A stretch of DNA of 64,000 nucleotides from Ostreococcus lucimarinus. Lineage: Eukaryota. This document shows, one piece after another, positions 17,973 through 63,299 of this stretch; the first letter of the stretch is position 1, and the number at the start of each line of letters is the position of its first letter. The stretch is taken from the NCBI GenBank assembly GCA_000092065.1, contig CP000581.1; one strand, written 5' to 3'. The position numbers and the translations under genes were made by a program. The notes under the pieces were generated by a model, which saw only the letters and a list, made by a program, of their open reading frames with translations, ran no database searches and had not been told where the DNA came from.

Positions 17973-19901
17973 CTAGTACGCGTTGGAAAACGCGGTATTC
18001 GCGCGCCCGTCGAGATGGCGAGGACTTTCACCGCTCGTCAACGCGGTGTACATGGACGGCTCCGCGGCGGGCTGTTTTGGATTCGGCGCGGCGGCGCCCG
18101 ACGCCGTCGGAGGAAGACCAGACTTCTTCGCAAGCTTGGCAGATACTTCGTACTTCATCGTCGGCTTTATGGCCATATGGAACTGCGCTTCAAGACCGGC
18201 AAAGGAGCCAAAAATCATGTCAGCCAAGGGCATGAGCATCCATTGCACTTGGCTCACGAGTTGCCACCACATTGGCGCGACGTTGCACTCGAAGTGTTCT
18301 CTGTCGTGAATGACGAAGAGACGAATGTAAAATTCACTGATGATGATGGCCCAGCACGCAAACGTCATCGGAAAGAACGCTACTACGGTGAGAGAGCGTA
18401 ACCCAATTCCAAATGGATACGTCTCGAGCACTGGGTTCGCCCAAGTCGAGCATAAACCGCCCAACATGCACGTAAACCAAAAGAGAGTCCACGAAATGTG
18501 GTGCTCCGCCGCGTGCACGTACAGCTTCATCATCCGCGTGAATGAAACCTTGTCTCGTCTCTCTAAGTAATTCATCACGATGTACGACAGATCGATCGCC
18601 CCCCAGGCGTGTCTTTTGGCTTGAATGTATCGAGCCTTAATGGCCTCATTCCATGACCGCTCTTCGATGGCATCGTTGCCCATCACCATGAAGATGGGCA
18701 CAACGCGGTAATCACCATCCTTTTTAAACCAGCACTTTAAATAGTGGTGCCAATCTTCGGGGATGATATCCACATCCCAACCACCGCACTCGATGGACGT
18801 TCTGAGACTTTGCGAATAAATCGCAAATGGGAACGGATGACTAAACGGCGACGCGAGTTGACCGAGGAAACCGACGCTATCAATCACAGCCTTGATACGA
18901 ATGAGAATCGGTACGTTCCAAATGTTCGGGAAAAAAGTCTCCGCAGCCTGGTACGTGGTGTTGTACGGCTTTGGATTTTGCACGTGATTATACGCCAAGC
19001 AGTCCATGAACTGCGAGTCAAAGTACGTATCCGCGTCGCACACCGTGAGCATAATTTGCTCCGGCGCCAATCCGCGCTTCTCCACAAACTCTCTCTTGAC
19101 GCATCGAACCGACCACGCACAGTTCGAACTTTTCCCGACCGCCTCGCCTGCGCCGAGCACGTGCTTGGTGTAATACAGTCCCAGGAGCGACGACCCGAAC
19201 TCGTCGATTAGTTCTCCCACCTTGGCCGGCGCCTCGGTGTCTCGACTCTCCGTCGCGAGTACGACGATTAATCGCTCTTTCGCACACGTCTGCGTCGCCA
19301 ACGTCCCTACAGTCTTACGCAGTGTCCCGAGAGGCTCTTTGTACGTGGGAATCACGCACACATGGATGATATCGTTAAACTTATCCGTGAGTCCGCGCTT
19401 CAACTTCCCGTCCACGCCGCTCGTCCACGTGTGCTCGTCGTCCCCAACCAACGTCGGTTTTTCGTTCGCCTTGTACACCTGTCCGGCGCCGCCAAAGAAC
19501 CTATCGTAACACGGTGATTTCAACGTTCCATCGTTTCCGAGTCGATGCCAATCCGCATCCTTATACGTGTGTAACAACGGAATCCCAACCAGCAACGCCG
19601 CGAAGCCGCTGTGAATGCCTTTCACCCACCCATAACAAATGTACGCGCAGATGAACGCCACCGTCAGCGCTGGGCTCAGGCGCGCCCCCCACAGCAAAAC
19701 AAACGTAATCAGCGTCATGCTCATCGCGAATGGCAGCGTGAACATCACCCGTTCCAACGCTCCGCCGCGGTACGCGATGTTGTCCCGAAGATCCTCGCTC
19801 GCGTCGTCGAGCAACGCGGCGTCGCCGACGTCCATCGAGCGCACTTTCGGGCGCGCGAGGGCGTCGGAGACGACCAAGCGCACTCGCGTCGATCGAGTCA
19901 T
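17973..19901 (-). CDS. Family-2 membrane glycosyltransferase (Glyco_trans_2_3-like; processive beta-glycan-synthase-like)
   Basis: TM helices flank a cytosolic GT-A domain: VCDADTYF (DxD), QAKRHAWG (QxxRW-like), and a C-terminal multi-TM pore region (TLFWFTCMLGG..., FFPMTFACWAIIISEFYIRLF). The substrate is unknown. Confidence 0.6.
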   Translation of the reverse strand: MTRSTRVRLVVSDALARPKVRSMDVGDAALLDDASEDLRDNIAYRGGALERVMFTLPFAMSMTLITFVLLWGARLSPALTVAFICAYICYGWVKGIHSGFAALLVGIPLLHTYKDADWHRLGNDGTLKSPCYDRFFGGAGQVYKANEKPTLVGDDEHTWTSGVDGKLKRGLTDKFNDIIHVCVIPTYKEPLGTLRKTVGTLATQTCAKERLIVVLATESRDTEAPAKVGELIDEFGSSLLGLYYTKHVLGAGEAVGKSSNCAWSVRCVKREFVEKRGLAPEQIMLTVCDADTYFDSQFMDCLAYNHVQNPKPYNTTYQAAETFFPNIWNVPILIRIKAVIDSVGFLGQLASPFSHPFPFAIYSQSLRTSIECGGWDVDIIPEDWHHYLKCWFKKDGDYRVVPIFMVMGNDAIEERSWNEAIKARYIQAKRHAWGAIDLSYIVMNYLERRDKVSFTRMMKLYVHAAEHHISWTLFWFTCMLGGLCSTWANPVLETYPFGIGLRSLTVVAFFPMTFACWAIIISEFYIRLFVIHDREHFECNVAPMWWQLVSQVQWMLMPLADMIFGSFAGLEAQFHMAIKPTMKYEVSAKLAKKSGLPPTASGAAAPNPKQPAAEPSMYTALTSGESPRHLDGRANTAFSNAY

Positions 19902-22493: not shown

Positions 22494-25400
22494 ATGGAGC
22501 GCGCGGAGAGCCCGCCGCGCGCGCGGCGAACCTCCGTCGACGGCGGACGCATGGGAAGCCCGCGAAACAGCCAAGACCTGAGCGGCACGCTCGCGTCGTC
22601 GCCGCTGAGGAACTTGCACGCCGACTCCGAGGCTGGACGACTGGCGCGCGCGTCCATGAGCTCGCTCACGGGCGCCGTGGCCAGCCGAGGCTCGATCGAT
22701 GACTTGCGACAACGCATGGAGACGATCGGGACGCCCGCGACCGTGGCCGCGGGGGCGGGAGCGAACGCGGGGGAGATTGAAACCACGCGCGTCGATCGGT
22801 TGTTGCGCGAACGCGAGCAGATGCGAAAGACTCGATCGCAGACGAATCTGAACGCGAGCGATGAGGGCGATGATTTTGATGGTGAATCCGTTGGACGCGT
22901 GCAGTCCCTCATCATCGCGGCGAATCGATTGCCGATCAGTGTGAAGAAGAAGCCGGACGGGACGTGGGATCTTCGGACGTCGGCGGGCGGACTGGTGAGC
23001 GCGCTGTTGGGCGTACGAAAGACGTACGACATGACGTGGATTGGATGGCCGGGGGTGTTCGTAGAAGAGGGACCCGATCGCGACGCGCTCACGGCGACGT
23101 TACGTAAGCAGAACTTCTTGCCGGTGTACTTGACGAAGACGCAAGTCGAGCTGTATTACAATGGGTACTGCAACAATGTGCTGTGGTCGCTGTTTCACTA
23201 CGTGCCGCTGAGTTTCGAAGCCAAGCTCAGCGAAGATACGAACATGCACGCGCAATGGTTGGCTTATAAGGAAGCCAATCGCGCGTTTAGCGATGCCATC
23301 ATGAGCGTGTATCGCACAGGGGACGTCGTCTGGGCGCACGATTACCATTTGATGCTCGTGCCGCAAATGTTGCGAGCGTACGAAGATAGCATGAAAATTG
23401 GTTGGTTTCTGCACACGCCGTTTCCGAGTTCGGAAATTTACCGAATGTTGCCGATGAGAGAAGAGCTGTTGCACGGGTGTTTGGCGGCTGATCTCGTTGG
23501 CTTTCACACGTACGATTACGCGCGGCACTTTGTATCGGCGACGAGCCGAATTCTTGGTTTAGAGGCGACACCCGAGGGCGTGGAAAATAACGGGAGCTTT
23601 ACGCGTGTTGCGGCGTTTCCCATCGGTATCGATCCGGGTCGCTTCACCTCGGCTCTACGCACAAATGAGGTGCAGGTGCACATTAACGAGCTCCGCGAAC
23701 GCTTCCGAGGTCGCAAAGTCATGCTCGGTGTCGACCGTCTCGACATGATCAAGGGTATCCCGCACAAGTTGTTGGCGTTTGAGAAATTTTTGAGTGAGAA
23801 TCCTGATTGGGCGAATAAGGTGATTCTCATCCAGATCGCCGTGCCGACTCGCAGCGACGTTCCGGAGTACCAACGACTCGCCTCGCAAGTGCACGAACTT
23901 GTTGGGAGAATCAACGGCCGTTTCGGCTCCATCGGGAGCGTTCCGATTCAGCATTTGGATTGTACTATGCAGTTTCCTGAGCTTTGCGCGCTTTATGCAG
24001 TTACAGACGTCATGCTCGTCACTTCTCAGCGCGACGGTATGAACCTCGTCTCTTATGAGTTTGTTTCGTGCCAAAGCAAGAACGACGCCGGCGTGTTGGT
24101 TCTATCCGAATTCGCGGGCGCCGCGCAGTCTATCGGCGCTGGGGCTCTTTTAGTGAACCCGTACAACGTCACCGACGTCGCAAGCGCCATTAAAGACGCG
24201 TTAACGATGCCTGAAGTGGAAAAGATTGAGCGACACAGAAGCAGCTTCTCGCACGTGAGCATTCACACTTCGCAAGCGTGGGCGGACACGTTCATCAGTG
24301 AACTCAACGACACGCACGTCGAAGCAGAATTACGTCAAAAGCGTATTCCGCCGCATCTCAAGCCCGAAGCGATGGTCAAATCGTTTCAAATGGGTAAAGA
24401 ACGGCTCATCATTCTGGGCTACAACGCCACACTCACCGATCCCATGGAGAGCAAGACCAAGATACGGCCGAAGCTCGAGTCGCAGAAGAGTCGTCACAAG
24501 ATTCATCCGGTCGCACAGGAGTGCCTCACGCGCCTGTGCGATGATCCTAATACCACTGTTTGTATCTTCAGCGGTTCCGAGCGCAACAAGTTGGCGCAAA
24601 TCTTTGCGATGTTGCCCAAGGTTTGGATCGCGGCGGAAAATGGCGTTTTTATTCGACCACCACTTCAAGGCAAGAACGGCACCGACACTCCAAAGTGGCT
24701 GACCATGATTGAGACTACGAATTTGGACTGGTTGGAGAGCGTTGAAGTCGTTTTTGAGTACTTTTGTGAGCGTACTCCGAGAAGTCACGTGGAGATGCGC
24801 GAAACGTCGCTGGTGTGGAGTTACAAGTACGCCGATCCGGACTTTGGTCGTCAACAAGCGCGCGACTTGCTACAGCACTTATGGACTGGCCCGATTTCGA
24901 ATGCTCCCGTGGATGTCATCATGGGTGCAAAGTCTGTCGAAGTGCGTCCGGTCGGCTTGAGCAAGGGAACCGCAGTCGAGCGCATCGTGCAAATGATCGG
25001 CGGACACGGCAAAGAACTCATTGAAGTCGATTTCGTCGCGTGCTGCGGTCACTTCTTAGGCCGTGACGAGGATATCTTCTCGTTCTTGGAGATGAAGTCT
25101 TTGCCTCCGGAGGATCAGTTGCCAGCTGTGCAAACTTCGCCGGGATCTCCCATCAAAATGAACAGCGCCGTCGGCATTTCCAGCCCGATTGCGGGCGACC
25201 CTGATTCCGACGACGAAAAGAAAGAAGCCGATATTCGATTCCACGACGTCTTCACCTGCACCGTTGGACGCAAACGTTCGAGTGCTCGGTACTACGTGAA
25301 CGATTCCGACGAGATTGCGCAGTGTCTCGCAGCCCTGACGAACAGCTTGAACGACGGAAAAGGCTTCATCGAACTCTTGCAGTTTGAGGACTCGTTGTCG

Positions 25401-25511
25401 AGCGCTCCTTCGATGAGCAGCTCTAGAAACAACTTACGCGAACGAATCGGGAGTTTACCCCTCGTCAACGAGAAGGAGGTCTTTCGAACCTCAAGCGGAC
25501 AGAGCATTTAA
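22494..25511 (+). CDS. TPS: Trehalose-6-phosphate synthase/phosphatase (GT20 TPS domain plus C-terminal TPP-like domain)
   Basis: LIIAANRLPISVKKKPDGTWDLRTSAGGLVSAL, YYNGYCNNVLWSLFHYV and HDYHLMLVPQMLR are GT20 hallmarks. The C-terminal half has a HAD-like trehalose-phosphatase fold (LIILGYNATL... region). 1005 aa. Confidence 0.85.
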   Translation: MERAESPPRARRTSVDGGRMGSPRNSQDLSGTLASSPLRNLHADSEAGRLARASMSSLTGAVASRGSIDDLRQRMETIGTPATVAAGAGANAGEIETTRVDRLLREREQMRKTRSQTNLNASDEGDDFDGESVGRVQSLIIAANRLPISVKKKPDGTWDLRTSAGGLVSALLGVRKTYDMTWIGWPGVFVEEGPDRDALTATLRKQNFLPVYLTKTQVELYYNGYCNNVLWSLFHYVPLSFEAKLSEDTNMHAQWLAYKEANRAFSDAIMSVYRTGDVVWAHDYHLMLVPQMLRAYEDSMKIGWFLHTPFPSSEIYRMLPMREELLHGCLAADLVGFHTYDYARHFVSATSRILGLEATPEGVENNGSFTRVAAFPIGIDPGRFTSALRTNEVQVHINELRERFRGRKVMLGVDRLDMIKGIPHKLLAFEKFLSENPDWANKVILIQIAVPTRSDVPEYQRLASQVHELVGRINGRFGSIGSVPIQHLDCTMQFPELCALYAVTDVMLVTSQRDGMNLVSYEFVSCQSKNDAGVLVLSEFAGAAQSIGAGALLVNPYNVTDVASAIKDALTMPEVEKIERHRSSFSHVSIHTSQAWADTFISELNDTHVEAELRQKRIPPHLKPEAMVKSFQMGKERLIILGYNATLTDPMESKTKIRPKLESQKSRHKIHPVAQECLTRLCDDPNTTVCIFSGSERNKLAQIFAMLPKVWIAAENGVFIRPPLQGKNGTDTPKWLTMIETTNLDWLESVEVVFEYFCERTPRSHVEMRETSLVWSYKYADPDFGRQQARDLLQHLWTGPISNAPVDVIMGAKSVEVRPVGLSKGTAVERIVQMIGGHGKELIEVDFVACCGHFLGRDEDIFSFLEMKSLPPEDQLPAVQTSPGSPIKMNSAVGISSPIAGDPDSDDEKKEADIRFHDVFTCTVGRKRSSARYYVNDSDEIAQCLAALTNSLNDGKGFIELLQFEDSLSSAPSMSSSRNNLRERIGSLPLVNEKEVFRTSSGQSI

Positions 25512-30419: not shown

Positions 30420-33400
30420 ATGGACGAATCGACGCCGTTGATCGGGCGGCGACGGGAAGGGAGACGCGGCGCGCGCGGCGCGCTCGTCGTCGGCGCGCTC
30501 GCGTGCGCGTGCGGAACGCTCGTGGCGTTGGCGAATTGCCCGCACCTGGTGTCGACACTCTCACGGGCGATTGGTGTTGGAGACGCGGACGGCGCGGGTG
30601 CGCGCGGGGTGAACGCGGTCTTCGCGCGCCTCGGTGCGGTGTGGGGACGCGATGATTCTGATTACGTGTACACGTCGCTCGAACGTGATTTACTGCGCCC
30701 TCACGAAGACGACGATGAAATCGAAGACGAAATCGACGAAATTGACGCCGACGCGAAGGACGGAAAGGTTGCCGAACACACTTCGACAGACCAACTGCAC
30801 GGTCGAGGAAACGAAGGCTTGGCAAAGGTCGCAACTCTGGGCGAGCCCGCACTTCCGACCGATTTGCCGCCGTCACGCGCGTTGGCGACGCTCGACGAGA
30901 TTGAAGCTGTTTTACTGGGCAACTGGCGAAAGTGGACGCGCTTGGACGTCGTGCGCGGACGCGCTGAACTGGAAACCGTGCGAGATAAACTCGCTGCTCT
31001 CGTTGGTGATGACGTGAATGAAACAACTGTCGCCAACTCTGCCGCAGAGGTGACAAACGAGACGTCGTTTATTTCTTGCAAGGCTGAACAACTCGTACGT
31101 GAAATCCTGAGTGAGTACGGCGGCGCACCCAAACTTCTACTCCCAAAATTGTTGCGCTTCATTTTCCACGACGCGGTTGACGAGAACAACTTATTAATCC
31201 AAAAGGATGGAGGCTATGTACCGTTTAGGGCACCAACTGGCTCGATATACGGCGGTTTGGACCTTTGCCTTTACTCTCCCCTGACGCATGGAACGTCTGG
31301 GAAACCAGACCCTGGGCATAACAGAAATGTTCGAATGAACCGCGAGGTTATCAAATTGTGTGACGCTGTCTGTAAAGATTTGAATACTGGTTTATGTGAA
31401 CTGCAGAATGATAAACCTAAACGGTGCTATACGGACATGTTAGCGTTTAGTTCCATAATCGTTCTGGAGAAGCACTCAAAGCTTAGTGCCCCATCTTCAA
31501 TGGTTTGGGGAAGGCGAGGCGGTGAGTGTGGCAACAGCATCGTTACACCATTTACCAAAAGCAGGGAGAAGCTTGAATCCTACGTTGGAAAACCTGCGCT
31601 GAACTTTGCGCCGGCGCTTCATGCCATGGACGATCCCGGCACCTTCTCGAGAGTCTTTGCAAAACTTGGATTTACGCCTTCAGAGCACGTCGCGTTGATG
31701 GGAGCTCACAGTGTGGGTAAAATTTCACCATGCGCGAGTGGACTCAACGGTATCGAAAAAGGTAACTTTTGCCCGATGAAGAAGCGATATGATCCACCCA
31801 TCGAGATAGGGAATGAATCCCCACAGTGCCAGCCACAAAAACACGTTCAGGGCAACTGTTGGAAACCCTCTGGACCGAAGTCTTATGCCACTCCGTATTA
31901 CTACTTCTTTCGTGGTGGGAGAACAGGGTACAAGACCGGCTTCGCCGACGGTGGGGTTTGGGATCACACGCCTGATTCGCTTGACAATCAGTATTACAAG
32001 TTGATGTACGACGAAGACTATGGGGGACGCACTAAGTGTTGCGGGAAAAAGAAGAATGGCGGTTGCCATCGGGGTGGGCAACCAGTCGACAGGGAAACTG
32101 GGAGAAAACTCCCTTTTTCCTCATTATGCAACATAAATTGGTGCCGCTCAGACCGCAAAGGTAGGACACACATGAAGTCTACAAAAGCTTGGGTCGAACC
32201 CAGACATTCGCTCTTAAAATTGCCCTACTTTCGCGGAACCATCGTGAAAATGATAAGACTTGCCGGTGATTGGGCTCTTCTCGGGAACAATGAAACACAA
32301 TCGATTCTGAAGCGTTATGCAGAAGATGAAAACGAATTCCATTCCAATTTTGCGGTGGCCTGGGATAAGGTGTTACGGAAGGGGTACTTCCTTGACGAGC
32401 TGAAAACGTGTTCGAACGTGTCAGGACCGAAAGATGCGCAACTTCTTACTCGCCTAAGGGAGTACCAAGCTGCACTGTCGGCCAAACGCGCCAAACGCGT
32501 GGCCAAAAATGCACGACGCGCCGGGGTCGAAGCCGAAAGTTCTGACCAAACATCGAATCTTGGAGATCAAAGTTCACACAACAAACTTGGACAACAAAGT
32601 TCAGCACAAGAAGATGCAACCACAGATAAAACACTGCAAGTTGCAACGGCAACCATGGATGATGCGAAGTACGACGACGGGCTTGACACTGCAACGAACG
32701 CATCGGATCTCGAGCAAGTTGTACCAAAGTCAATTTCAACGACCATTCAACATTGTGATAAGTTCAATGTGCTTGGTCTCGTCAAACACATCCGGTCAGA
32801 GATACAGAAGCTCCCTCGAGATACTACACCTCTTGCGATAGGGCAAGAGCTCACTGCGGCGAGAGACGTAGTCATGGGACAAAACGTACAGATGAGCGAG
32901 CCGACGCCTGCGCCTGCGCCCACACCTACGCCGACGCCTGCGCCTGCGCCTGCGCCTGCGCCTGCGCCTGCGCCTGCGCCCACACCCGCACCTTCGCCAG
33001 GAGTGGAGCAAAGCGACGAGTCCAGCAACGAAGATGGAGGTGACGCGAAAATCTACAGCTTGGAGCACGCAGGCGCACGGTGCGTAGGGCTGCCTCGTGC
33101 CAAGCGAGTGAAGCGAACGCGCAGTGTGGAGGAGTGTGCTGAGTTGGTGAAAAAACGTGGGCACCTCCACTTTGCCTTCCTCCGCAACACCGTGTGCTTG
33201 GAGCAGCCAAAACCGTGGAGCAAATGTCGTCGCATTCGCAAGGGCCGATTTGATCTTTACAAGATCAAAGCAGAGCCTGCGCCTCCTGCGCCTCCGCCTG
33301 CGCCTCCTGCGCCTCCTACGCCGTCTACGTGGTCGTCTACGTGGTCGTCTACACCTTCCACTTACAGTTACAGTGCAGCGACATGCAAGCGCGATCGTGG

Positions 33401-34619
33401 CAAGTTCGTTGATGGGAAATGCTGGCATATGGCTACGACTGACACATCTTGTGAAGAGACATGTGCTGACAAAAATCTTCAATATGATGAGGGCACGCAC
33501 CTGGGCTCGCCGAAGAACCCTGAGACCTGGGACAAGTGTGTGGCTGTCGCCCAGATGTTTAAAAAGCAGGCAAGGACGAATGGGCCAGCGATCGGCGGGG
33601 GTGGTGGCTGTGGCTGTTCAGTCTTTAAGATTCCTGTTTACGGTACGAATGATGCAGTTCGCCTGAGTGGCGCCAATACTACGAGCCCCGAGTGTTGGAA
33701 GATGGGCCCAATCCAAGCACGTCTCTGCGCATGCAAACCAGCATCAGCTGTTGGCGCAAGTTGCACCTCTTCCTCAAGCTGCTTGAACGCTTATTGTAAG
33801 TCAGGCGTTTGCACGAGTTTTTTGGCCCAGAACAGTGCATGCACCGAGCACGCTTCGTGCGTGACAGGCTATTGCTCACCAACGGAACGTAAATGCACGA
33901 CGGTGTCATGGAAGTCACAAAAAGGCGCGTATGCCAAAAAGTACTATAACGCTGGTAAAAAGAAATTCAGGGTTATGCCAAAACAGAAGAACGTACCTGA
34001 TTGGGAGGCGATGACGACGTTTCCAAAGGGTTTTTGTATCGGAAATGACAGCGCCGGTTGCTTGATAGCACGCGGTGTCAACCGCCAGAAGACGATTCAA
34101 AAAGCCAAACAGCGTTGTGCGTCGTCTGAGGAATGCGTGGCTGTTTGGTGTTGCGCAACAGGATGTCCAGCCACGACGTGTCATGCAGTCAAGACTAGAA
34201 CTCCAAATTACGCGGCGAACGATTGCCCGCTCTTTCCTGGAAGCTTCCGCGAGACCAAATACCCGGCTACGTTCTATACTAAAGACACGGAGGGCGCTCA
34301 AGTACACGAGTCACCGCGAAACATCGTGACGGAAGTGGACATTGCTGCGAGTGCCGATGAAGGGGAAAACATGTACAGTCGGATAAAAGGAGGGAAAAGA
34401 AGGAAGGTAGACGCAAAGCAATGCCCCTTACAAAAATTGAAAGCGCACACCTTGGACGAGTGCGCTGAGATGGTGAGGGAACACGGAAGCCTTCACTTTG
34501 CCTTCGGACATAAAAGGTGCTTTTTGGCCAAACAACCGTGGAGCGAATGCGAGACGAGCCATGGCAAGTATGATCTTTTTCAAATCGACGAACACGCACG
34601 CGACGACGATGAAGATTGA
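30420..34619 (+). CDS. Giant secreted/membrane-anchored plant-type (class II/III-like) heme peroxidase fused to Pro-Ala/Pro-Thr mucin-like linkers, Cys-rich modules and two PAN/Apple-like domains (1399 aa)
   Basis: N-terminal hydrophobic anchor (ALVVGALACACGTLVALANC). Peroxidase motifs: LLRFIFHDAV (distal His, R..FHD), ALMGAHSVG (proximal His), DSLDNQYYKLM (FDNxYY). (PA)n and PxxP linkers are encoded by (CCTGCG)n at 32904..32990 and again at 33275..33350. Two approximately 60-aa repeats, ...SVEECAELVKKRGHLHFAFLRNTVCLEQ... and ...TLDECAEMVREHGSLHFAFGHKRCFLAKQ..., have PAN-like Cys spacing. Additional Cys-rich (EGF/GCC-like) segments are present. Confidence 0.7.
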   Translation: MDESTPLIGRRREGRRGARGALVVGALACACGTLVALANCPHLVSTLSRAIGVGDADGAGARGVNAVFARLGAVWGRDDSDYVYTSLERDLLRPHEDDDEIEDEIDEIDADAKDGKVAEHTSTDQLHGRGNEGLAKVATLGEPALPTDLPPSRALATLDEIEAVLLGNWRKWTRLDVVRGRAELETVRDKLAALVGDDVNETTVANSAAEVTNETSFISCKAEQLVREILSEYGGAPKLLLPKLLRFIFHDAVDENNLLIQKDGGYVPFRAPTGSIYGGLDLCLYSPLTHGTSGKPDPGHNRNVRMNREVIKLCDAVCKDLNTGLCELQNDKPKRCYTDMLAFSSIIVLEKHSKLSAPSSMVWGRRGGECGNSIVTPFTKSREKLESYVGKPALNFAPALHAMDDPGTFSRVFAKLGFTPSEHVALMGAHSVGKISPCASGLNGIEKGNFCPMKKRYDPPIEIGNESPQCQPQKHVQGNCWKPSGPKSYATPYYYFFRGGRTGYKTGFADGGVWDHTPDSLDNQYYKLMYDEDYGGRTKCCGKKKNGGCHRGGQPVDRETGRKLPFSSLCNINWCRSDRKGRTHMKSTKAWVEPRHSLLKLPYFRGTIVKMIRLAGDWALLGNNETQSILKRYAEDENEFHSNFAVAWDKVLRKGYFLDELKTCSNVSGPKDAQLLTRLREYQAALSAKRAKRVAKNARRAGVEAESSDQTSNLGDQSSHNKLGQQSSAQEDATTDKTLQVATATMDDAKYDDGLDTATNASDLEQVVPKSISTTIQHCDKFNVLGLVKHIRSEIQKLPRDTTPLAIGQELTAARDVVMGQNVQMSEPTPAPAPTPTPTPAPAPAPAPAPAPAPTPAPSPGVEQSDESSNEDGGDAKIYSLEHAGARCVGLPRAKRVKRTRSVEECAELVKKRGHLHFAFLRNTVCLEQPKPWSKCRRIRKGRFDLYKIKAEPAPPAPPPAPPAPPTPSTWSSTWSSTPSTYSYSAATCKRDRGKFVDGKCWHMATTDTSCEETCADKNLQYDEGTHLGSPKNPETWDKCVAVAQMFKKQARTNGPAIGGGGGCGCSVFKIPVYGTNDAVRLSGANTTSPECWKMGPIQARLCACKPASAVGASCTSSSSCLNAYCKSGVCTSFLAQNSACTEHASCVTGYCSPTERKCTTVSWKSQKGAYAKKYYNAGKKKFRVMPKQKNVPDWEAMTTFPKGFCIGNDSAGCLIARGVNRQKTIQKAKQRCASSEECVAVWCCATGCPATTCHAVKTRTPNYAANDCPLFPGSFRETKYPATFYTKDTEGAQVHESPRNIVTEVDIAASADEGENMYSRIKGGKRRKVDAKQCPLQKLKAHTLDECAEMVREHGSLHFAFGHKRCFLAKQPWSECETSHGKYDLFQIDEHARDDDED

Positions 34620-56312: not shown

Positions 56313-59300
56313 ATGGACCACACCGAGGATGCGGCAACAACAACCGTCTCCCTCGAGCGTCTCGTCAAGCTCGAGCGTGACAACGCGTTGATGTTGAGTT
56401 TCATTCTCGACGACAAACGCCTCGAGTTCAATCTACCGCCAGGAACGTCGATGGATGACGTGAACTACGGCGCGGTGAACGTCCAAGACGTAATCGAGCG
56501 ACTACGACGTAACGAGCGCGTAGACTTGAGCGGGGTGCTCACGGCGTCCGCGGCGACGAAACGAGCAGGAGGGGACGCCGCAACGCAAGAAACGAGCGCG
56601 TGCGCGCCGAAGCGGCTGGAACGGAGCAAAGCGATTTCCAACGAATCGTCGACGGCGAAAAATTCGACTAATCCGTTCGAAAACATGGTGAATGTTGGTG
56701 TGAGCGATGGTATGGGTACGGCAGTAGCAACGGTAGAGGCGAAAAAAGCAGACGAGACGACCGCGGTCTTTACGCTCGACAAAGCGCCGTCGTGCGCAAG
56801 CTCTGGCGAACTGAAGTTACCAGATTTGTATTCGGCTCTCAGCGTTACAGATTTACGCGAACTGGCGTTTGAAATTGTTTGCTCGGTACAGATGGACGAA
56901 GAGCAGTTAGAAACGGCTCGCATCGCCTTAGATATCGACCAGGAACTTGCTGACAAGATTCAAAAGCATTCTGAGAAATTCGCGCCAGCCATCAAAGAGG
57001 AGGGGATCTCAGCGCGTATCCATCTGCGCGCGATGATATCCGCGATAGAGCATTTTAATGGCCCTCTCGGCGAGGGTGAGCAGTTTTTCAAGAAGCGTTG
57101 TCGCGCAGCATGCGAGCTGTTGTGGGCGCGTCATTGCTCTGAGCAAAACGCGAGTGCGAGCAAGAAGACAGCAGCGAAGCATGATTCAGACGACGATACT
57201 CCGAATCTTACGACACAAAACGTATTGTCCGAGATAAACAGAATGTTGACGCTTCCTGAAGTCGACGCCACATGGGTCGAGTCGGCGATTGAGATGATTG
57301 AATCCGTAATCGAAAGCGAAAAGAACGGTTTTGGGTACCCTGGCATCTTTGGTATGAAGTTATACGTCGAACTTTTAAGCGCAGTCTTTGACCAGGTGGA
57401 AGATTACACTCTGGCATACGATGCAACGACCATCATTGACAGCTTTCAACCCGTGGCATGCGCTTTGGGTTTGACAGATGAAACTTCTAGAGGTGTGATG
57501 CTGGCGTTTGCCGTAGTCAGGCAAGCGATCGCAGCCATGAAAGACGTGGGAATAGACTACGACGAAGGATCACCAGCGCTGGCTCTTTTATCAAAAGCGA
57601 GAGATAGTTTGCATCGTACGGAGACGAAAATGTCGCCGGCGGTTGCTTCAGCGGTGAGTTCTATTCTGAGCTGGGGCAGATTCATGCTGCACGACTTCAT
57701 GCACACCGTCGCGCCACCAGCGACACACGATGATCGTGACATCCTGATGATCGATCCAGAGGTGTTTGACGTTATTGTTGACATCACTTACGACACAGCG
57801 CAAATGTTGGGTCTAGATGGTGTCGCTATTTTGAAGGATGCTTGTCAAAAGTCTGCGTGCGCAGAGTATGATCGCGTTCGCACCGCTGCGATGGAGGATG
57901 CGAATGTACAAGGCGGTGATGCAACGTGTACCTCCCTCCGAACGATCGCTCAAACGACAGCACACAGCGCCGATCAGTTCTCTGCGCATCTAGAACGGTA
58001 CATAGTGACCTCCCCTGGAATGAGTTCCAACGTGACGGGATGCTTTGCTGCTCAACTCGGCGACCGCTTCAAGAAAGATTTATACGCTTGGCTCGAGTCA
58101 GGACCGCAACTCAATGTTCAATCTTTAGAGACTATATGGACGGTTGGTGATCTACAAAACGCACTCGTCGCTACTGGTGGTGATGCGGTCGAGCCCATGG
58201 CGTTAGATGAGCGCACGTCTGTTCTCGTGTTCACTTGGCTGAATGTGAAAATTGACGATTTAAACACCATCGTCGATCGATGCATCTCGACCGAGAGATG
58301 GAAAGTAAACAAGGATAGCGCTCCCGTTCCGAGTGCAGTCGACTTTTTACGAGCCGTGAACGAGACGTTGGATGGTTTTTTCTCGTTGAAAATCCCTGCG
58401 CACGTGAGCGCTTTGAGAGCGCTGACTGAGGGCATCGACGCCGCTGTGCGAAAGTATTCAAGGTCTGCCGTTCAATCGCTCGGTTCGGCTGAAGAGATCG
58501 TGCCGCCAATACCTACTATGACACGGTACAAAAAGGCTATAGTCGACGATCTCCACAACAATTTCAAGTCCGAAGAACCGCCACGATTTTCTTTTGAAGA
58601 AGGATGCGTCGGTGCGTCGACGCTGCGTTTGACTTCACTGAAATTCCTCATGGATAAGATGTACTTGCTTGAGCAAGAAATCATTCCGAAGTGGAAAAGT
58701 ATGCAACGTTCTGCGTCACTGCTGACTCATCCCAACGCGGAACACGTCGTGCCGAGTGCAGATTGGTTTGAAGGCATGATGGCTGGGGCGAGACAGGCGC
58801 TTCGCCAGAGCATGAGTCAAATAGCGAACCACATGGCGTACAGCGTTATCTATCGGGATTTGAGCGGCGCAATTCTACATAACATCTATGCGCAAGGCGT
58901 TCATAGAAGTTCGCACAACATCAGCACTGAGATATTGCCGTACTTGGATGGCGTCTTGGGTTACGTAGCCGTGCGACTGGACAGTCAGACTCGAAACGCG
59001 GTTGGCTCTTTTTTGCTACAAGCCACGGTCTCGGGATGGATGCGTGTGTTGTTGAACGGTGGGCCGAGTCGTGTGTTCGTTGCAAACGATGTTGAGCTTT
59101 TAGAAGAAGAAATAGAAATTCTTCGAGACTTTTTCATCGCGGGAGGCAACGGCTTGGACGTCGCCGAAGTCACCGCTCGCATCACGCCGATGTCCGCCAT
59201 TCTGTCCATGATGAGCCTCTCCACGGACGACTTGTGCCAAAATTACACCGATTTGAGTCAAAAAGAGATGCACACGCCGGTGTCAAACGCGGACGACACC

Positions 59301-59438
59301 GATATCATAAATATCCACACCGCCGACGTCGTCTTGCGAGTGCTCTGCCACCGCGCAGAACACTCGGCGAGCAAGTGGATCAAGGCACACTTTTCCATAC
59401 GCAAAACGGAATCTGCCGGCATGTTCGGTTTCATGTAG
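56313..59438 (+). CDS. Large conserved protein, probably a Munc13-homology (DUF810/MHD1-MHD2) tethering factor
   Basis: 1041 aa, largely alpha-helical. The C-terminal segment LEEEIEILRDFFIAGGNGLDVAEV... matches the MHD2-type motif (DL..L.dfF.a.G.GL) of plant unc-13 homologs. The assignment is from recall only. Confidence 0.4.
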   Translation: MDHTEDAATTTVSLERLVKLERDNALMLSFILDDKRLEFNLPPGTSMDDVNYGAVNVQDVIERLRRNERVDLSGVLTASAATKRAGGDAATQETSACAPKRLERSKAISNESSTAKNSTNPFENMVNVGVSDGMGTAVATVEAKKADETTAVFTLDKAPSCASSGELKLPDLYSALSVTDLRELAFEIVCSVQMDEEQLETARIALDIDQELADKIQKHSEKFAPAIKEEGISARIHLRAMISAIEHFNGPLGEGEQFFKKRCRAACELLWARHCSEQNASASKKTAAKHDSDDDTPNLTTQNVLSEINRMLTLPEVDATWVESAIEMIESVIESEKNGFGYPGIFGMKLYVELLSAVFDQVEDYTLAYDATTIIDSFQPVACALGLTDETSRGVMLAFAVVRQAIAAMKDVGIDYDEGSPALALLSKARDSLHRTETKMSPAVASAVSSILSWGRFMLHDFMHTVAPPATHDDRDILMIDPEVFDVIVDITYDTAQMLGLDGVAILKDACQKSACAEYDRVRTAAMEDANVQGGDATCTSLRTIAQTTAHSADQFSAHLERYIVTSPGMSSNVTGCFAAQLGDRFKKDLYAWLESGPQLNVQSLETIWTVGDLQNALVATGGDAVEPMALDERTSVLVFTWLNVKIDDLNTIVDRCISTERWKVNKDSAPVPSAVDFLRAVNETLDGFFSLKIPAHVSALRALTEGIDAAVRKYSRSAVQSLGSAEEIVPPIPTMTRYKKAIVDDLHNNFKSEEPPRFSFEEGCVGASTLRLTSLKFLMDKMYLLEQEIIPKWKSMQRSASLLTHPNAEHVVPSADWFEGMMAGARQALRQSMSQIANHMAYSVIYRDLSGAILHNIYAQGVHRSSHNISTEILPYLDGVLGYVAVRLDSQTRNAVGSFLLQATVSGWMRVLLNGGPSRVFVANDVELLEEEIEILRDFFIAGGNGLDVAEVTARITPMSAILSMMSLSTDDLCQNYTDLSQKEMHTPVSNADDTDIINIHTADVVLRVLCHRAEHSASKWIKAHFSIRKTESAGMFGFM

Positions 59439-59598: not shown

Positions 59599-61188
59599 AT
59601 GGAGTCGAAGCCGCTGCTCGACGTCGTCACCGTGCGTGACGACAGCGATGACGGATCGATCGATCACGCGCACGTCGCGCCGTCGCGCGCGATCCGTCGA
59701 CGGACGAAGTGCGTCGCCTTTGCGTGCGTGACCCTGCTCTTGAGTGCGTTCGTCTTCCTGATGGCGCACGACGCGGTGCGATCGGAATCGTTAGGGCGCA
59801 CGAACTCGGTGGCGTGGTTCAAAACGATGCTCTCTGGCGCTCCGTCGACGGATGTCGAAGCTGGGGGCGATGGAAACGCGAGCACAGCGCAAGGAAAGGG
59901 TGCGGCGCTCGGTCAATCGAGGGTGTTGACGCCGACGAAGGCGTTGACGAGGCAGATGGTGTTGGTAGAGGAGACGCGGAACGTGCCGATGAAGGATAGA
60001 TCGGTCGTCGAAGTAACGCGATCATACGATGGTCGCCGAGTGCGAGTGCCAACGTTTTTGGAAAAGTGGGCGACGGCGCCGTTTTGGGAAGACAACGCGT
60101 ACCTCAACGTGCACGAGAGTCCGAATTCAGAGACGGGAAAGCTTTTCGTCAGTGGACACTCGACGGATATGGGGAAATACGCCAACGTGTGGTTGGCGTC
60201 GGCCACGCATTGGGGGTTGCCGGCGAGAATTACCGGTCACGGGACGACCTGGAACAACTGGGAGGATAAGACAATGGGTTTGAGGACAGATTTAGAACAC
60301 ATGAGCGGCAATCCCGTCGTCGTCGTGAGCGACACGGGCGATGTTTTCTTCTCGTGTGGGCAAGACGAGTTGCTCAAACGATTCGAAGACAGTGGAGCGG
60401 ATATGCTTGTTAGTGGAGAGACGCAACTGTACCCGGAAGTCATGAGTTATTACGAGTTTCGCGACGACATTGACTGGATGGATAAGCACAACAATATGGG
60501 TGAAATCGGTCGAGTCGCTGAAGGCGAGCCGTTCCGCGGCGGCATTCCTGGTGACCCACGCGCATTCCGTTGGCCCAACGCCGGCTTGATGATGGGTCGC
60601 AAAGATGCACTGCTCAAGTATTTCGACTATCTCGAAGATAGTTTTGTCGAGACGGAGAATCTCTCAGGCGAGCGACGCTTTCGAAGCACGTGCAAGGCGT
60701 TTCAGCACACCGATGCACAAGCAAAGGAGGAGCGTATGAACGATGGATTTTACGACGATCAGCTTTGTTTGGCCTCGTACGCCATGTCTCGCATCGCCGA
60801 CCGCGATCCAAAATTCAAAATCGACCTCGACGGGTCGATCCTCCACTCTCCCGGAGCGATGGATATGCGACTGATGCGCCGAGATGAAAAAACTGGCCGC
60901 GTGTACAACGCCGAGACCGGGAAATCGCCATGCGCGTGGCATTTCAACACCGCCAACGCCAAAACTCATTTATCGATGGCCGTGGAAAAGTTCCCAAACT
61001 ATTTCGTCTCCGAGAACGTTGGAAACGAAATCCTGGGCCGGGAATTCGAGCCCGCGCTCGGCGCAGTCCCGACGCCGCCGCCGAAGTCCAAAAAGAAATC
61101 GTCCAAAAAGTCGAAGAAGCGATCCCACGTCGTCGTCGTCGACGACGACGACGACGACCCCTTCGACTTTGACCTCAACCTCGCGTGA
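59599..61188 (+). CDS. Type II membrane glycosyltransferase with an LH3/PLOD-type GT-A domain (hydroxylysine/hydroxyproline-glycan glycosyltransferase-like)
   Basis: N-terminal cytosolic tail plus one TM (CVAFACVTLLLSAFVFLMA). The lumenal domain aligns to the human LH3 N-terminal GT domain: NPVVVVSDTGDVFFSCGQDELLKRFEDSGADMLVSGETQLYPE~[45 protein letters not shown], plus downstream conserved blocks. Basic/acidic low-complexity C-terminus. Confidence 0.65.
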   Translation: MESKPLLDVVTVRDDSDDGSIDHAHVAPSRAIRRRTKCVAFACVTLLLSAFVFLMAHDAVRSESLGRTNSVAWFKTMLSGAPSTDVEAGGDGNASTAQGKGAALGQSRVLTPTKALTRQMVLVEETRNVPMKDRSVVEVTRSYDGRRVRVPTFLEKWATAPFWEDNAYLNVHESPNSETGKLFVSGHSTDMGKYANVWLASATHWGLPARITGHGTTWNNWEDKTMGLRTDLEHMSGNPVVVVSDTGDVFFSCGQDELLKRFEDSGADMLVSGETQLYPEVMSYYEFRDDIDWMDKHNNMGEIGRVAEGEPFRGGIPGDPRAFRWPNAGLMMGRKDALLKYFDYLEDSFVETENLSGERRFRSTCKAFQHTDAQAKEERMNDGFYDDQLCLASYAMSRIADRDPKFKIDLDGSILHSPGAMDMRLMRRDEKTGRVYNAETGKSPCAWHFNTANAKTHLSMAVEKFPNYFVSENVGNEILGREFEPALGAVPTPPPKSKKKSSKKSKKRSHVVVVDDDDDDPFDFDLNLA

Positions 61189-61343: not shown

Positions 61344-63299
61344 GTGACGCGAAGTGACGTAACATCGCAACGCACCGTGACGCATCGCAGCATGACGCAG
61401 AACGACGCCGTCGACGCGCTCGTGACGGACCCACTGGGATTCATCCAGCGCGCGTTCGCTCGATCGACGACGACGACGACGACGAAGCCGACCGATGAGG
61501 ATTGGGGCGTGCGCGAGACCGCGCTTGAACTCACACGATGCGAGGAAAAGTTCAACGCGCTGCCGGAGATTAACGCGCACGGCGGGGTGGAGACGATTCA
61601 AAACAACGCCCTGGTTCGGTTTCGCGGCTTGGTGCAGGACATGTACGAGCCGGAGTACTACGTCGGGGCGTATGAACGCGCGAATGGGGACGAGAAGACG
61701 TGGGTGACGACGAAATATGCGGAATCAACGATGGATGACGTGAACGGAGGGATCGGAGAGAGCGTACTGTTCGAGAGACGCGTGCTGTATTGCGTGCCGG
61801 TGCCGGGCGAACGGCGGTGGGTGGGCGAACGCGAGCGGGCGACGATGAACGAGCGGGCGGCTAGTGAAGATGCACACGGGGAGAAGCGAGCGCGAGAGGA
61901 GGAAGCACATATGGACGTGTGTGCGGATGCGAACGTGATGACGCCGACGACGGGGACGGCGATGTTGATTAGACCGGACATTGAACGCGTGAAAAAGGCG
62001 AGCGCGGGGGATCGCACGGCGCCGGATACTCCGGAACAGATTGGTGAAGAAGAGGTCCACGAGGAATCGCTCGATCAGTTGCTAAACTTTCCTCTTATTC
62101 CTGAGTCGCGTTCGCCGTGCATTGTGAAGTTGTACGGCGAAACGGACGACTCACTGAAGTTGAACGACGTCGTAGAATTTGTCGGCATGCTGTACTATGC
62201 GCCAGAACTCGGAGTCGAGAAACGGGATCAGCAGATGGAAGACAGCCCGAACGCCGCTTTGTACGCGTCATCGGCGTTTCCCGAGGAAGATGCGTCCAAG
62301 AATCCGGTGACGAGTTTGGTTCCTAGATTCCACGCCTTGGCGTACAAGGTGACGTCCCAGAATAAATTTGTCAACTCGACGCCGGTGGAACGCTTCAGTG
62401 AAACCGAAATGGAAACTTCGCACAAGCTCTCGCCAGAGCAGGTTAATTCGGCGCGCTCTAAATTACTGGATATCCTTACTAACGTCCTCGGTGGTGATGT
62501 TTTTGCAGCGGAGTTGGTGTTGATGACGTTGATTTCGCGCGTCCACACGCGAACGGACATGCTCACATTGGGTAAGTTTTCTGTCAACCTCACCGGATGT
62601 AAATTGGATTCGTGCGAAACGGGAACGATATCTGAAATGCTGTCTACTGTGATCGGTCAGGTGTGCCCGAGCACTGCACACCTTCCCGTGACAGTACCCG
62701 CGCTTAACGCACGCTCGTGGTCGCCGAAGAAGGATTACGTGTACAACCGTCTTCGCTCTGGTCCGTTGCAACTTGCCGCGAGCACAGTTTTGCTATTGGA
62801 CGAGACCAAACTGGAGGCCGGTACTTTGACTGAGATTGGCATTCGAAACGTCGATGCGCTGAAGTCGCTGTCTACGTTGCAAGATCTCGAGTACGATTTT
62901 CAGTATCATCAGATGCGAATGCCCGTGGACGTTCCGCTCATCATCTTGTCCGACACGAAGAGCATCATTCCGGCGGACGTTATCGTACCTTTGCGACGCG
63001 TGCGTCAGCCGAAAGTCATCGAAACCACCGAAGATGAACTTGCAATCATGCGTGCCTTCGTCTCCGGAGCTCGCATGACTAAGCACACGATCTCTGAACA
63101 AACATCTGCGGACATCGAAACCGAAATCGTCGCCGCTCGCAAAAACGACAAGGCGTTGACGCAAGAAGTTTTACATTTGCTGCTCACCATGGCGCGTCTC
63201 CACGCCCTCGCCCTCGGAGGTTCAGAAGTCACGAAGCAGACGTGGATCGAAACCGTCGAAATCAATCGCCGTGTCGCCGAACGGAATCGCGTCGTTTAG
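61344..63299 (+). CDS. MCMBP: MCM-binding protein (MCMBP/ETG1)
   Basis: [20 protein letters not shown]~[35 protein letters not shown]~[26 protein letters not shown]~[23 protein letters not shown]~DYDFSYHQMEFP (human MCMBP). Confidence 0.85.
   Translation: [651 protein letters not shown]

What the first reader, a model, noticed from the sequence alone, without database searches (positions are those of the whole stretch)
59599..61188. Stand-alone LH3/PLOD-type GT-A glycosyltransferase domain as a type II membrane protein
The lumenal domain aligns block by block with the N-terminal glycosyltransferase domain of animal lysyl hydroxylase 3 (DxD-like SDTGDVFF, downstream HxN region). It has no hydroxylase domain.

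In an alga this could glycosylate hydroxyproline- or hydroxylysine-rich wall or scale proteins. That chemistry is little explored.
Basis: partly seen in the sequence, partly recalled or inferred. Interest (0 to 1): 0.5.

Follow-up and report, generated by a model that had tools for sequence, protein, structure and literature searches.

The report
Membrane-anchored LH3-type glycosyltransferase of Ostreococcus
The gene encodes a membrane-anchored sugar-transferring enzyme of the kind found at the front of animal collagen lysyl hydroxylase 3; the domain call is correct and public databases already carry it, but what the enzyme glycosylates in this wall-less picoalga is unknown.

Summary
ORF 59599-61188 (+) encodes 529 aa and is identical to Ostreococcus lucimarinus XP_001415494, which UniProt already labels "PLOD1-3-like GT domain-containing protein".

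It has one N-terminal membrane anchor (residues 38-56, positive-inside), so it is type II. Its lumenal domain is a GT-A fold of the LH3/PLOD type:
- Pfam PF25342 scores above its cut-off.
- hhalign to human LH3 gives 99.95% probability.

Almost all residues essential for LH3 glucosyltransferase activity are kept: W218, K224, D245/D248, E274, an aromatic at 278, N327, G329, D386/D387/Q388, H448 and N450. There is no accessory or hydroxylase domain.

The clade is found in Mamiellophyceae and differs from LH3 in several ways:
- LH3 Tyr114 is replaced by Gly.
- The glycoloop is shorter.
- There is an extra N-terminal subdomain.
- There are two roughly 40-aa insertions next to the acceptor site.
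- The cytosolic tail carries a conserved ExxxL[LI] sorting motif.

The most likely function is a Mn2+-dependent retaining UDP-hexose (probably UDP-glucose) transferase. The acceptor is unknown. This is a new member of a known kind and of modest interest.

The parts
59599..61188 (+). Complete intron-less CDS, 529 aa plus stop. Identical to O. lucimarinus XP_001415494.1.
59602..59619 (+). Acidic dileucine motif E2-S-K-P-L6-L7 ([DE]xxxL[LI]) at the extreme N-terminus of the cytosolic tail.
   Evidence: Present in 19 of 20 family members with an intact tail and anchor, although the rest of the tail varies. Motif definition and AP-complex recognition: PMC8905187.
59689..59709 (+). Basic cluster AIRRRTK directly before the membrane anchor. 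It gives the positive-inside signal and is possibly a di-Arg ER-export signal.
   Evidence: N flank +5 against C flank 0. The ER-export role is inference from general knowledge of type II glycosyltransferases.
59710..59766 (+). Single transmembrane signal-anchor, residues 38-56 (CVAFACVTLLLSAFVFLMA).
   Evidence: It is the only Kyte-Doolittle window above 1.6 in the protein. It is helical in the model.
59767..59931 (+). Poorly conserved lumenal stem, residues 57-111. Residues 82-109 have pLDDT below 50.
59932..60132 (+). Clade-specific N-terminal subdomain, residues 112-178. It includes the invariant P..FL..W..AP.W motif.
   Evidence: Block-mean pLDDT is 81-97 across it. It is conserved in the orthologues. 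It lies upstream of the region that aligns to LH3, which starts at residue 178-180.
60133..61008 (+). GT-A catalytic core of the LH3/PLOD type, residues 179-470.
60331..60342 (+). Non-canonical DxxD Mn2+ motif D245-T-G-D248, equivalent to LH3 D112-S-Y-D115. LH3 Tyr114 is Gly here.
   Evidence: Alignments. D245 and D248 are D in all 87 distant relatives; among the 22 closest they are D in 21 and 20 respectively. Position 247 is G/T/S/A in the clade but Y in most distant members.
60418..60438 (+). E274-T-Q-L-Y278-P-E, equivalent to LH3 E141...W145-P-E (the essential carboxylate and the gating aromatic).
   Evidence: Roles in LH3: PMC10342707.
60439..60570 (+). Clade-specific insertion 1, residues 281-324, directly after the gating aromatic.
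   Evidence: Shown as an insertion against LH3. Distant relatives match in separate stretches that skip it. Block-mean pLDDT is above 90 except for residues 311-320, which score 71.
60577..60585 (+). N327-A-G329, equivalent to LH3 N165-S-G167 (the Gly-rich loop). LH3 G168 is Leu here.
60631..60750 (+). Clade-specific insertion 2, residues 345-384, containing invariant C365.
60754..60762 (+). D386-D387-Q388, equivalent to LH3 D190-D191-Q192 (the end of the poly-Asp helix, essential for glucosyl transfer).
   Evidence: Mutant data: PMC10342707.
60940..60948 (+). H448-F-N450, equivalent to LH3 H253-G-N255 (the third Mn2+ ligand and the nearby Asn).
61060..61185 (+). Species-specific low-complexity C-terminal tail (K/S-rich, then VVVV-DDDDDD), residues 488-529. 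It is absent from the other orthologues.
   Evidence: pLDDT is below 50 over most of it.

Best explanation
The gene encodes a single-pass type II membrane protein. A short cytosolic tail and one membrane anchor hold a complete, catalytically competent GT-A glycosyltransferase domain of the LH3/PLOD (PF25342) kind in the lumen of the secretory/endosomal system.

Inferred mechanism, by homology to LH3:
- D245, D248 and H448 bind Mn2+ and the UDP pyrophosphate.
- W218 stacks on the uridine.
- K224, E274, N327 and D386/D387/Q388 position and activate the donor hexose.
- The sugar is transferred with retention of anomeric configuration.
- The donor is most probably UDP-glucose, which is the donor of all three characterised relatives (LH3, mimivirus R699, T. 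brucei ESAG3).

The acceptor is unknown and is probably not LH3's acceptor. The clade has added an N-terminal subdomain and two roughly 40-residue insertions beside the acceptor cavity. It has also lost Tyr114 and shortened the glycoloop. The conserved cytosolic ExxxL[LI] motif suggests adaptor-complex sorting between the TGN, endosomes, vacuole and plasma membrane, rather than a static early-Golgi residence.

Shown: the ORF, its topology signals, the fold, family membership, conservation of catalytic residues, the clade-specific additions and motif conservation. Inferred: activity, metal, donor, stereochemistry and localisation.
For: - Identity and expression: exact match to XP_001415494.1. 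Orthologues occur in O. tauri and O. mediterraneus, and a clear homologue (36% identity over the catalytic domain) in Mantoniella antarctica. Several of these come from MMETSP transcriptomes, so the gene is transcribed in relatives.
- Orthology by synteny: the PATROL1 - GT - MCM-BP order is kept in another Ostreococcus-type contig, and GT - MCM-BP is kept in contig L006.
- Family: Pfam GT_PLOD above cut-off; hhalign 99.95% and 90.5% with Ostreococcus-only sequences.
- Catalytic residues: equivalents of LH3 W75, K89, D112, D115, E141, W145 (Y or W), N165, G167, D190, D191, Q192, H253 and N255 are conserved across the clade. The tested ones are needed for LH3 Glc-T activity (PMC10342707). The same hallmarks define ESAG3's active site.
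- Topology: one hydrophobic segment, positive-inside. Four lumenal Cys (C253, C365, C390, C445) are invariant among the 11 Ostreococcus-type sequences and near-invariant in the wider clade.
- Sorting motif: present in 19 of 20 intact tails.
- Donor and stereochemistry precedents: R699 uses UDP-Glc only. ESAG3 is a UDP-Glc-specific, Mn2+-dependent, retaining enzyme. LH3 carries out a retaining alpha-1,2-glucosylation (abstract of 10.1101/841486).
Against: - No biochemical data exist for any member of this clade.
- Tyr114, which helps sandwich the uridine and is called a distinguishing feature of LH/PLOD GT domains, is Gly here.
- The glycoloop that closes over the donor is 8-14 residues shorter, so donor binding could differ.
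- Donor specificity of GT-A enzymes cannot be read reliably from sequence.
- A single-sequence Pfam match covers only profile positions 16-114 of 246. The C-terminal half is seen only with profiles or structure.
- The ExxxL[LI] motif sits at the very N-terminus, and its function there is untested.
- The structure model depends on an alignment that includes distant PF25342 proteins.
Confidence: 0.8

Rival explanations
1. Collagen-type galactosylhydroxylysyl glucosyltransferase. It would add Glc to Gal-Hyl, or sugars to Hyl/Hyp, on collagen-like or hydroxyproline-rich wall or scale proteins.
For: The two structurally closest characterised enzymes, LH3 and R699, do exactly this. The residues lining LH3's catalytic pocket are largely kept.
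Against: - Ostreococcus is described as naked and lacks scales (PMC3355577).
- The family was found in Ostreococcus and in the scaly Mantoniella alike.
- GT25, which makes the Gal-Hyl acceptor, is reported for Micromonas but not Ostreococcus (PMC3797821).
- The window has no 2OG oxygenase and no collagen-like ORF.
- The acceptor side is remodelled by insertions 281-324 and 345-384.
Confidence: 0.1
2. ESAG3-like protein O-glucosyltransferase. It would put alpha-glucose on Ser/Thr of surface or endomembrane glycoproteins. This is a specific version of the best explanation.
For: ESAG3 shows that an LH3-like GT-A without a hydroxylase can glucosylate Ser on a surface protein, using the same DxxD/His/acidic-Gln hallmarks. 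The alga has no obvious collagen pathway. The sorting motif points to post-Golgi compartments that handle surface proteins.
Against: No direct comparison with ESAG3 could be made, because its sequence and structure were not in the libraries searched. No substrate candidate has been identified. Nothing distinguishes a protein acceptor from a glycan or lipid acceptor.
Confidence: 0.25
3. The acceptor is not a protein. The enzyme would extend a glycolipid, a polysaccharide or an N-/O-glycan branch.
For: The next-best structural neighbours are retaining GT-A enzymes that act on glycans and polysaccharides: GT34 XXT1, PBCV-1 A64R, GT8 and GT6. LH3 itself adds Glc to a sugar (Gal), not to an amino acid.
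Against: All characterised members of the LH3-like group act on glycoproteins. No supporting context was found in the window.
Confidence: 0.2
4. A catalytically dead domain, such as a UDP-sugar binder, lectin or scaffold, like the GT domains of LH1 and LH2.
For: LH1 and LH2 keep the fold but lack Glc-T activity. Here Tyr114 is lost and the glycoloop is shortened.
Against: The LH1 defect maps to the D190 position (Ser178 in LH1; Ser178Asp rescues activity). Here that position is Asp (D386), conserved in the clade. So are D387, Q388, E274, the metal ligands and W218.
Confidence: 0.05
5. It belongs to another GT-A family (GT6, GT8, GT34, GT2 or GT25), and the LH3 likeness is only generic GT-A similarity.
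For: All GT-A enzymes share a Rossmann-like core and an acidic metal motif. The single-sequence Pfam hit is partial.
Confidence: 0.02

Closest known systems
Human LH3/PLOD3 N-terminal GT domain (residues 33-277; PDB 6fxk, 6wfv, 8zgc), the collagen Gal-Hyl glucosyltransferase
   Different: - The alga protein has no accessory (AC) domain and no 2OG-Fe(II) lysyl hydroxylase domain.
- It is membrane-anchored type II, not a soluble ER protein.
- Tyr114 is Gly, and G168 is Leu.
- The glycoloop is 8-14 residues shorter.
- It adds an N-terminal subdomain (112-178) and two insertions (281-324, 345-384).
- It has a cytosolic sorting motif.
- Its acceptor is unknown.
Acanthamoeba polyphaga mimivirus R699 (PDB 9dyt, 9dzs, 9e92), a collagen Gal-Hyl glucosyltransferase without a hydroxylase domain
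   Different: Viral and about 450 aa, with its own extra region and only about 18-20% identity. It acts on viral or host collagen, which Ostreococcus is not known to have.
Trypanosoma brucei ESAG3, a retaining protein Ser O-alpha-glucosyltransferase (bioRxiv 10.64898/2026.01.27.701950)
   Same: An LH3-like GT-A in a protist without a hydroxylase. It has the same hallmark set: DxxD, a C-terminal His, a Gly loop and an acidic-Gln pair. It shows that this fold is not restricted to collagen.
   Different: ESAG3 has E/Q instead of D/Q and forms an 18-mer ring. No sequence or structure comparison could be run here. Nothing is known about the quaternary structure of the alga protein.
Uncharacterised 'PLOD1-3-like GT domain-containing proteins' (PF25342) of giant viruses, phages, bacteria, fungi and protists
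   Same: Same Pfam family. These are usually 220-330 aa proteins with the GT domain alone.
   Different: They lack the Mamiellophyceae-type N-terminal subdomain and the two insertions, because their matches break into separate stretches around them. Most keep Tyr at the DxxD position.
Retaining GT-A families GT6 (alpha3GalT, ABO), GT8 (LgtC, glycogenin) and GT34 (XXT1, PBCV-1 A64R)
   Same: General GT-A architecture and the probable retaining, Mn2+-dependent chemistry.

Membership tests
PLOD/LH3-type GT domain (Pfam PF25342 GT_PLOD) | Matches the family HMM above the curated gathering score | tested here: met
   36.3 bits against a cut-off of 27, E 4.4e-9, but only profile positions 16-114 of 246. 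All orthologues carry the precomputed PF25342 label. hhalign to the LH3 GT domain spans the whole domain.
PLOD/LH3-type GT domain (Pfam PF25342 GT_PLOD) | GT-A fold whose nearest solved structures are LH3 and R699 | tested here: met
PLOD/LH3-type GT domain (Pfam PF25342 GT_PLOD) | Non-canonical DxxD motif plus a C-terminal His as Mn2+ ligands (LH3 D112, D115, H253) | tested here: met
   D245, D248 and H448. All three are D/D/H in every one of the 87 distant relatives and near-invariant in the clade.
PLOD/LH3-type GT domain (Pfam PF25342 GT_PLOD) | Tyr inside the DxxD motif (LH3 Tyr114) stacking on uridine, described as a distinguishing feature of LH/PLOD GT domains | tested here: not met
   G247 in the window. 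The position is G/T/S/A in the Mamiellophyceae-type clade and Y in 42 of 87 distant relatives. The role of Tyr114 is described in PMC6082870 and PMC10342707. Many PF25342 members also lack it, so it does not define the Pfam family.
PLOD/LH3-type GT domain (Pfam PF25342 GT_PLOD) | Glycoloop (LH3 G72-G87) carrying the uridine-stacking Trp75 | tested here: inconclusive
   The Trp is kept (W218), and so is the following Lys (K224, equivalent to K89). The loop between them is 8 residues shorter and 14 shorter.
PLOD/LH3-type GT domain (Pfam PF25342 GT_PLOD) | Catalytic pocket residues E141, N165, D190, D191 and Q192 that are needed for Glc-T activity | tested here: met
   E274, N327, D386, D387 and Q388 are conserved in the clade. 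Mutant data for LH3 are in PMC10342707.
PLOD/LH3-type GT domain (Pfam PF25342 GT_PLOD) | Mn2+-dependent transfer from a UDP-hexose with retention of configuration | not testable with these tools
   Needs an enzyme assay and product NMR.
Multifunctional lysyl hydroxylase (PLOD1-3 / LH1-3) | Three-domain architecture: GT domain, accessory GT-like domain and a C-terminal 2OG-Fe(II) lysyl hydroxylase domain | tested here: not met
   Pfam finds only GT_PLOD. The protein ends about 60 residues after the GT core, in a low-complexity tail. It is therefore not a PLOD enzyme.
Collagen galactosylhydroxylysyl glucosyltransferase (EC 2.4.1.66) as a function | The organism makes the acceptor, which requires a lysyl hydroxylase, a GT25 Hyl-galactosyltransferase and collagen-like substrates | not tested
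   The genome could not be searched with the tools available. The window has no 2OG oxygenase or collagen-like ORF. The literature lists GT25 for Micromonas but not Ostreococcus (PMC3797821).
Type II (signal-anchor) secretory-pathway glycosyltransferase topology | Short cytosolic N-tail, one N-terminal TM segment with positive-inside charge, a stem and a C-terminal lumenal catalytic domain | tested here: met
   The tail is residues 1-37 and the TM is 38-56, which is the only strongly hydrophobic segment. Flank charge is +5 against 0. A low-confidence stem (57-111) is followed by the folded domain. Four lumenal Cys are invariant in the Ostreococcus-type orthologues. No dedicated topology predictor was available.

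The most novel reading that the evidence does not exclude
The Mamiellophyceae clade is a post-Golgi (TGN/endosome/vacuole-cycling) protein O-glucosyltransferase that starts or extends a so far undescribed O-glycan on surface glycoproteins of wall-less picoalgae. This would be a green-lineage counterpart of trypanosome ESAG3. It could influence surface properties such as prasinovirus adsorption. The clade-specific subdomain and insertions would form a new acceptor-recognition module, and the conserved ExxxL[LI] tail would direct an unusual localisation for a glycosyltransferase.
Probability: 0.12. Interest if true: 0.6.

Novelty: new member of a known kind. Interest (0 to 1): 0.3.

Why it matters
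If active, this would be the first LH3-type glycosyltransferase studied in the green lineage. It would join mimivirus R699 and trypanosome ESAG3 as examples of the LH3-type fold working without a hydroxylase. That would help show how far this fold has spread beyond collagen biology.

O-glycosylation in prasinophytes is almost unexplored. Ostreococcus is genetically tractable and ecologically abundant, and its surface glycans are plausible determinants of virus-host interaction.

The practical gain is modest. The domain call is already in UniProt, no acceptor can be proposed from sequence, and nothing in the locus points to a new mechanism.

Tried and rejected
- First structure prediction, using only the 11 close orthologues, gave pLDDT 41.5 and was unusable. 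A 109-sequence alignment fixed this.
- The word-indexed homologue search returned only close Ostreococcus-type proteins, even when queried with alignments of distant members. Distant relatives came only from the exhaustive representative search.
- The IMG/VR scan with family patterns found no viral relative. A recent prasinovirus origin is therefore not supported, though this is weak negative evidence.
- The AlphaFold-DB fold library was unavailable.
- A full-text search for the protein's accession numbers found no paper. A search for Ostreococcus + collagen + lysyl hydroxylase gave nothing relevant.
- Gene neighbourhoods gave no functional clue. In Ostreococcus the neighbours are PATROL1 and MCM-BP, and the wider window holds housekeeping genes. 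The homologue on contigs L007/L008 sits at a different, equally uninformative locus.
- A regex scan of the window for collagen-like G-X-Y runs or extensin-like SP3-5 repeats found only short low-complexity matches.
- Opposite-strand and overlapping ORFs within 59599-61188 were treated as by-products of the high GC content. None is conserved as a called gene in the syntenic loci.
- Disulfide pairing of the four invariant Cys could not be checked, because model coordinates are not exposed.
Full report
**What is there**

The window is compact, mostly intron-less and about 57% GC. An ATG-to-stop ORF of 529 codons lies at 59599-61188 on the + strand.

Its translation is identical to Ostreococcus lucimarinus CCE9901 XP_001415494.1 / UniRef A4RR26. 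UniProt already names this entry "PLOD1-3-like GT domain-containing protein".

The neighbouring genes are a PATROL1/Unc13-like protein (56313-59438) and MCM-binding protein (61344-63299). The same PATROL1 - GT - MCM-BP order appears in a second Ostreococcus-type genome. GT - MCM-BP also appears in contig L006, which is AT-richer and looks Bathycoccus-like (my inference), and there the GT gene is tandemly duplicated.

Orthologues of 45-65% identity exist in O. tauri, O. mediterraneus and unnamed marine contigs. Several come from MMETSP transcriptomes, so the gene is expressed in relatives.

**Is the LH3 likeness real?**

Yes. Five lines of evidence agree.
- Pfam reports a single family, PF25342 GT_PLOD, above its gathering score: 36.3 against 27 bits, E 4.4e-9. 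The match covers only the N-terminal half of the profile.
- A profile of the 11 close orthologues finds only LH3 chains in the PDB (best E 8e-4). A sub-threshold second stretch aligns DDQ and the C-terminal His.
- Profile-sequence hhalign against the human LH3 GT domain gives 90.5% / E 1.4e-6 with Ostreococcus-type sequences alone. With 109 family members it gives 99.95% / E 2.9e-38. Both alignments span the whole domain.
It reproduces the published residue numbers and the segments printed.
- An exhaustive search of 1.84 billion representatives found 185 relatives, 36 of them at E 1e-10 or better. Of the 109 sequences in the alignment built from these (the window protein, 9 orthologues and 99 hits chosen at 200-450 aa), 103 match PF25342 and no other GT family appears.

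With that alignment AlphaFold2 gave a confident model: mean pLDDT 81, and mostly above 90 across residues 112-480. An alignment of close orthologues alone had failed.

Fold searches put the model firmly with LH3 and R699.
- The next hit, PBCV-1 A64R, scores 10.9 and is followed by GT34, GT8, GT6 and GT31 enzymes.
- Foldseek agrees: E about 1e-11 for R699 and LH3, against 1e-5 for GT6.
- The best viral models are again "PLOD1-3-like GT domain" proteins.

**Active site**

The alignments and column counts map LH3 residues onto the alga protein as follows.

| LH3 residue | Alga residue | Note |
|---|---|---|
| W75 | W218 | |
| K89 | K224 | |
| D112 / D115 | D245 / D248 | |
| E141 | E274 | |
| W145 | Y278 | W in most relatives |
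| N165 | N327 | |
| G167 | G329 | |
| D190 / D191 / Q192 | D386 / D387 / Q388 | |
| H253 | H448 | |
| N255 | N450 | |

These positions are conserved throughout the clade.

In LH3, D112, D115 and H253 bind Mn2+, and W75 stacks on uridine. Alanine mutants of W75, E141, W145, D190 and D191 essentially lose glucosyltransferase activity. N165A and Q192A keep partial donor turnover but give no detectable transfer to acceptor (PMC6082870, PMC10342707). The same hallmark set defines the active site of T. brucei ESAG3.

LH1's lack of activity maps to Ser at the D190 position. The alga protein has Asp there. A dead domain is therefore unlikely.

There are also departures from LH3:
- Tyr114, the aromatic inside DxxD, is Gly247. 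It is G/T/S/A in the clade.
- G168 is Leu.
- The glycoloop is 8-14 residues shorter.

**Architecture beyond the core**

The protein is built as follows.
- Residues 1-37 form a cytosolic tail.
- Residues 38-56 are the only strongly hydrophobic segment. The flanking charge is +5 on the N side and 0 on the C side, which indicates type II topology.
- Residues 57-111 are a poorly conserved stem, and residues 82-109 have pLDDT below 50.
- Residues 112-178 form a confidently modelled, clade-specific subdomain upstream of the LH3-alignable core.
- Two insertions, 281-324 and 345-384, are absent from LH3. Distant PF25342 proteins also skip them. They sit right after the gating aromatic and before the DDQ helix, on the acceptor side.
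- Four lumenal cysteines are invariant among the 11 Ostreococcus-type sequences and near-invariant in the wider clade.
- The last 42 residues are a species-specific Lys-rich and poly-Asp tail.
- There is no accessory domain and no 2OG-Fe(II) domain, so this is not a PLOD enzyme.

**A conserved sorting signal**

The extreme N-terminus reads M-E-S-K-P-L-L. An E-x-x-x-L-[LI] hexapeptide is present in 19 of 20 family members with an intact tail. This includes homologues only 30-36% identical to the window protein, even though the rest of the tail is not conserved.

This is the acidic dileucine consensus recognised by sigma subunits of AP complexes. In plants it directs TGN-to-vacuole and endocytic sorting (PMC8905187). 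Together with the juxtamembrane RRR, it suggests regulated post-Golgi trafficking. This is inference only.

**What it probably does**

The three characterised relatives are LH3, R699 and ESAG3. All use UDP-glucose, and where the linkage is known they are retaining enzymes. R699 and ESAG3 act without a hydroxylase domain.

I therefore infer a Mn2+-dependent retaining UDP-hexose transferase, most probably a glucosyltransferase. I put about 0.5 on that donor.

The acceptor cannot be deduced. The collagen-type reading is weak for these reasons:
- Ostreococcus is described as naked, although this has been questioned.
- The family was found in Ostreococcus and in the scaly Mantoniella alike.
- A CAZy-based survey lists GT25 for Micromonas but not Ostreococcus.
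- The window holds no oxygenase and no collagen-like ORF.
- The acceptor face is rebuilt.

An ESAG3-like protein Ser/Thr glucosyltransferase and a glycan- or lipid-directed enzyme both remain open.

**Distribution and novelty**

Clear homologues that share the N-terminal subdomain and the insertions were found in the following:
- Ostreococcus species;
- Mantoniella antarctica;
- unnamed marine contigs whose composition and synteny suggest Bathycoccus and Micromonas, which is my inference.

More distant relatives include a chytrid-like fungus, brachiopod PLOD and many short proteins from metagenomes and viruses. No close viral copy was found in IMG/VR. No paper mentions the protein.

The finding is a correct domain identification that public annotation already carries. 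It concerns an uncharacterised algal subfamily, so it is a new member of a known kind. Its interest is modest and rests mainly on the unknown acceptor and the conserved sorting motif.

Noticed in passing
window 59602-59619 (residues 2-7); also L006 and proteins P0002-P0010, P0076, P0077, P0079, P0089, P0090, P0098, P0106: An acidic dileucine motif E-x-x-x-L-[LI] sits at the very N-terminus of the cytosolic tail. It is kept in 19 of 20 family members while the rest of the tail diverges. That is unusual for a type II glycosyltransferase and suggests AP-complex sorting.
   Followed up: partly
L006:378-2660 and L006:2890-4425: In an AT-richer, apparently Bathycoccus-like contig, the GT gene is tandemly duplicated (760 aa and 511 aa), directly upstream of MCM-BP as in Ostreococcus. 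The first copy has a long Glu/Gln-rich lumenal stem.
   Followed up: partly
window 60337-60339 (G247) and about 60252-60270 (loop between W218 and K224): LH3 Tyr114, the uridine-stacking residue inside DxxD, is Gly here and G/T/S/A across the clade. The LH3 'glycoloop' is 8-14 residues shorter. Donor binding may differ from LH3.
   Followed up: partly
window 61060-61185: A species-specific C-terminal tail (KSKKKSSKKSKKRS, then VVVV-DDDDDD). A 99%-identical metagenomic variant (P0001) differs almost only here, with several Asp-to-Ala changes.
   Followed up: no
window 30420-34619 (+), repeats at 32901-33005 and 33276-33329: A 1399-aa ORF with a haem peroxidase domain carries in-frame (A/T)P-rich linkers (PTPAPAPTPTPTPAPAP..., PAPPAPPPAPPAPP). 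These are mucin/AGP-like stretches and the sort of sequence that could be O-glycosylated. No link to the GT was shown.
   Followed up: no
window 17973-19901 (-): A 641-aa ORF matches Glyco_trans_2_3 (GT2-like) just below the Pfam cut-off (26.7 against 27 bits). This may be a second glycosyltransferase in the window.
   Followed up: no
window 16806-17894 (-): An ORF combines a PAN/apple domain with a cyclophilin-type peptidyl-prolyl isomerase domain. This is an uncommon pairing that suggests a secreted or lumenal PPIase.
   Followed up: no
window 22494-25511 (+): A fused trehalose-6-phosphate synthase (GT20) and trehalose-phosphatase gene. It is ordinary, but it is another sugar-nucleotide enzyme in the window.
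   Followed up: no
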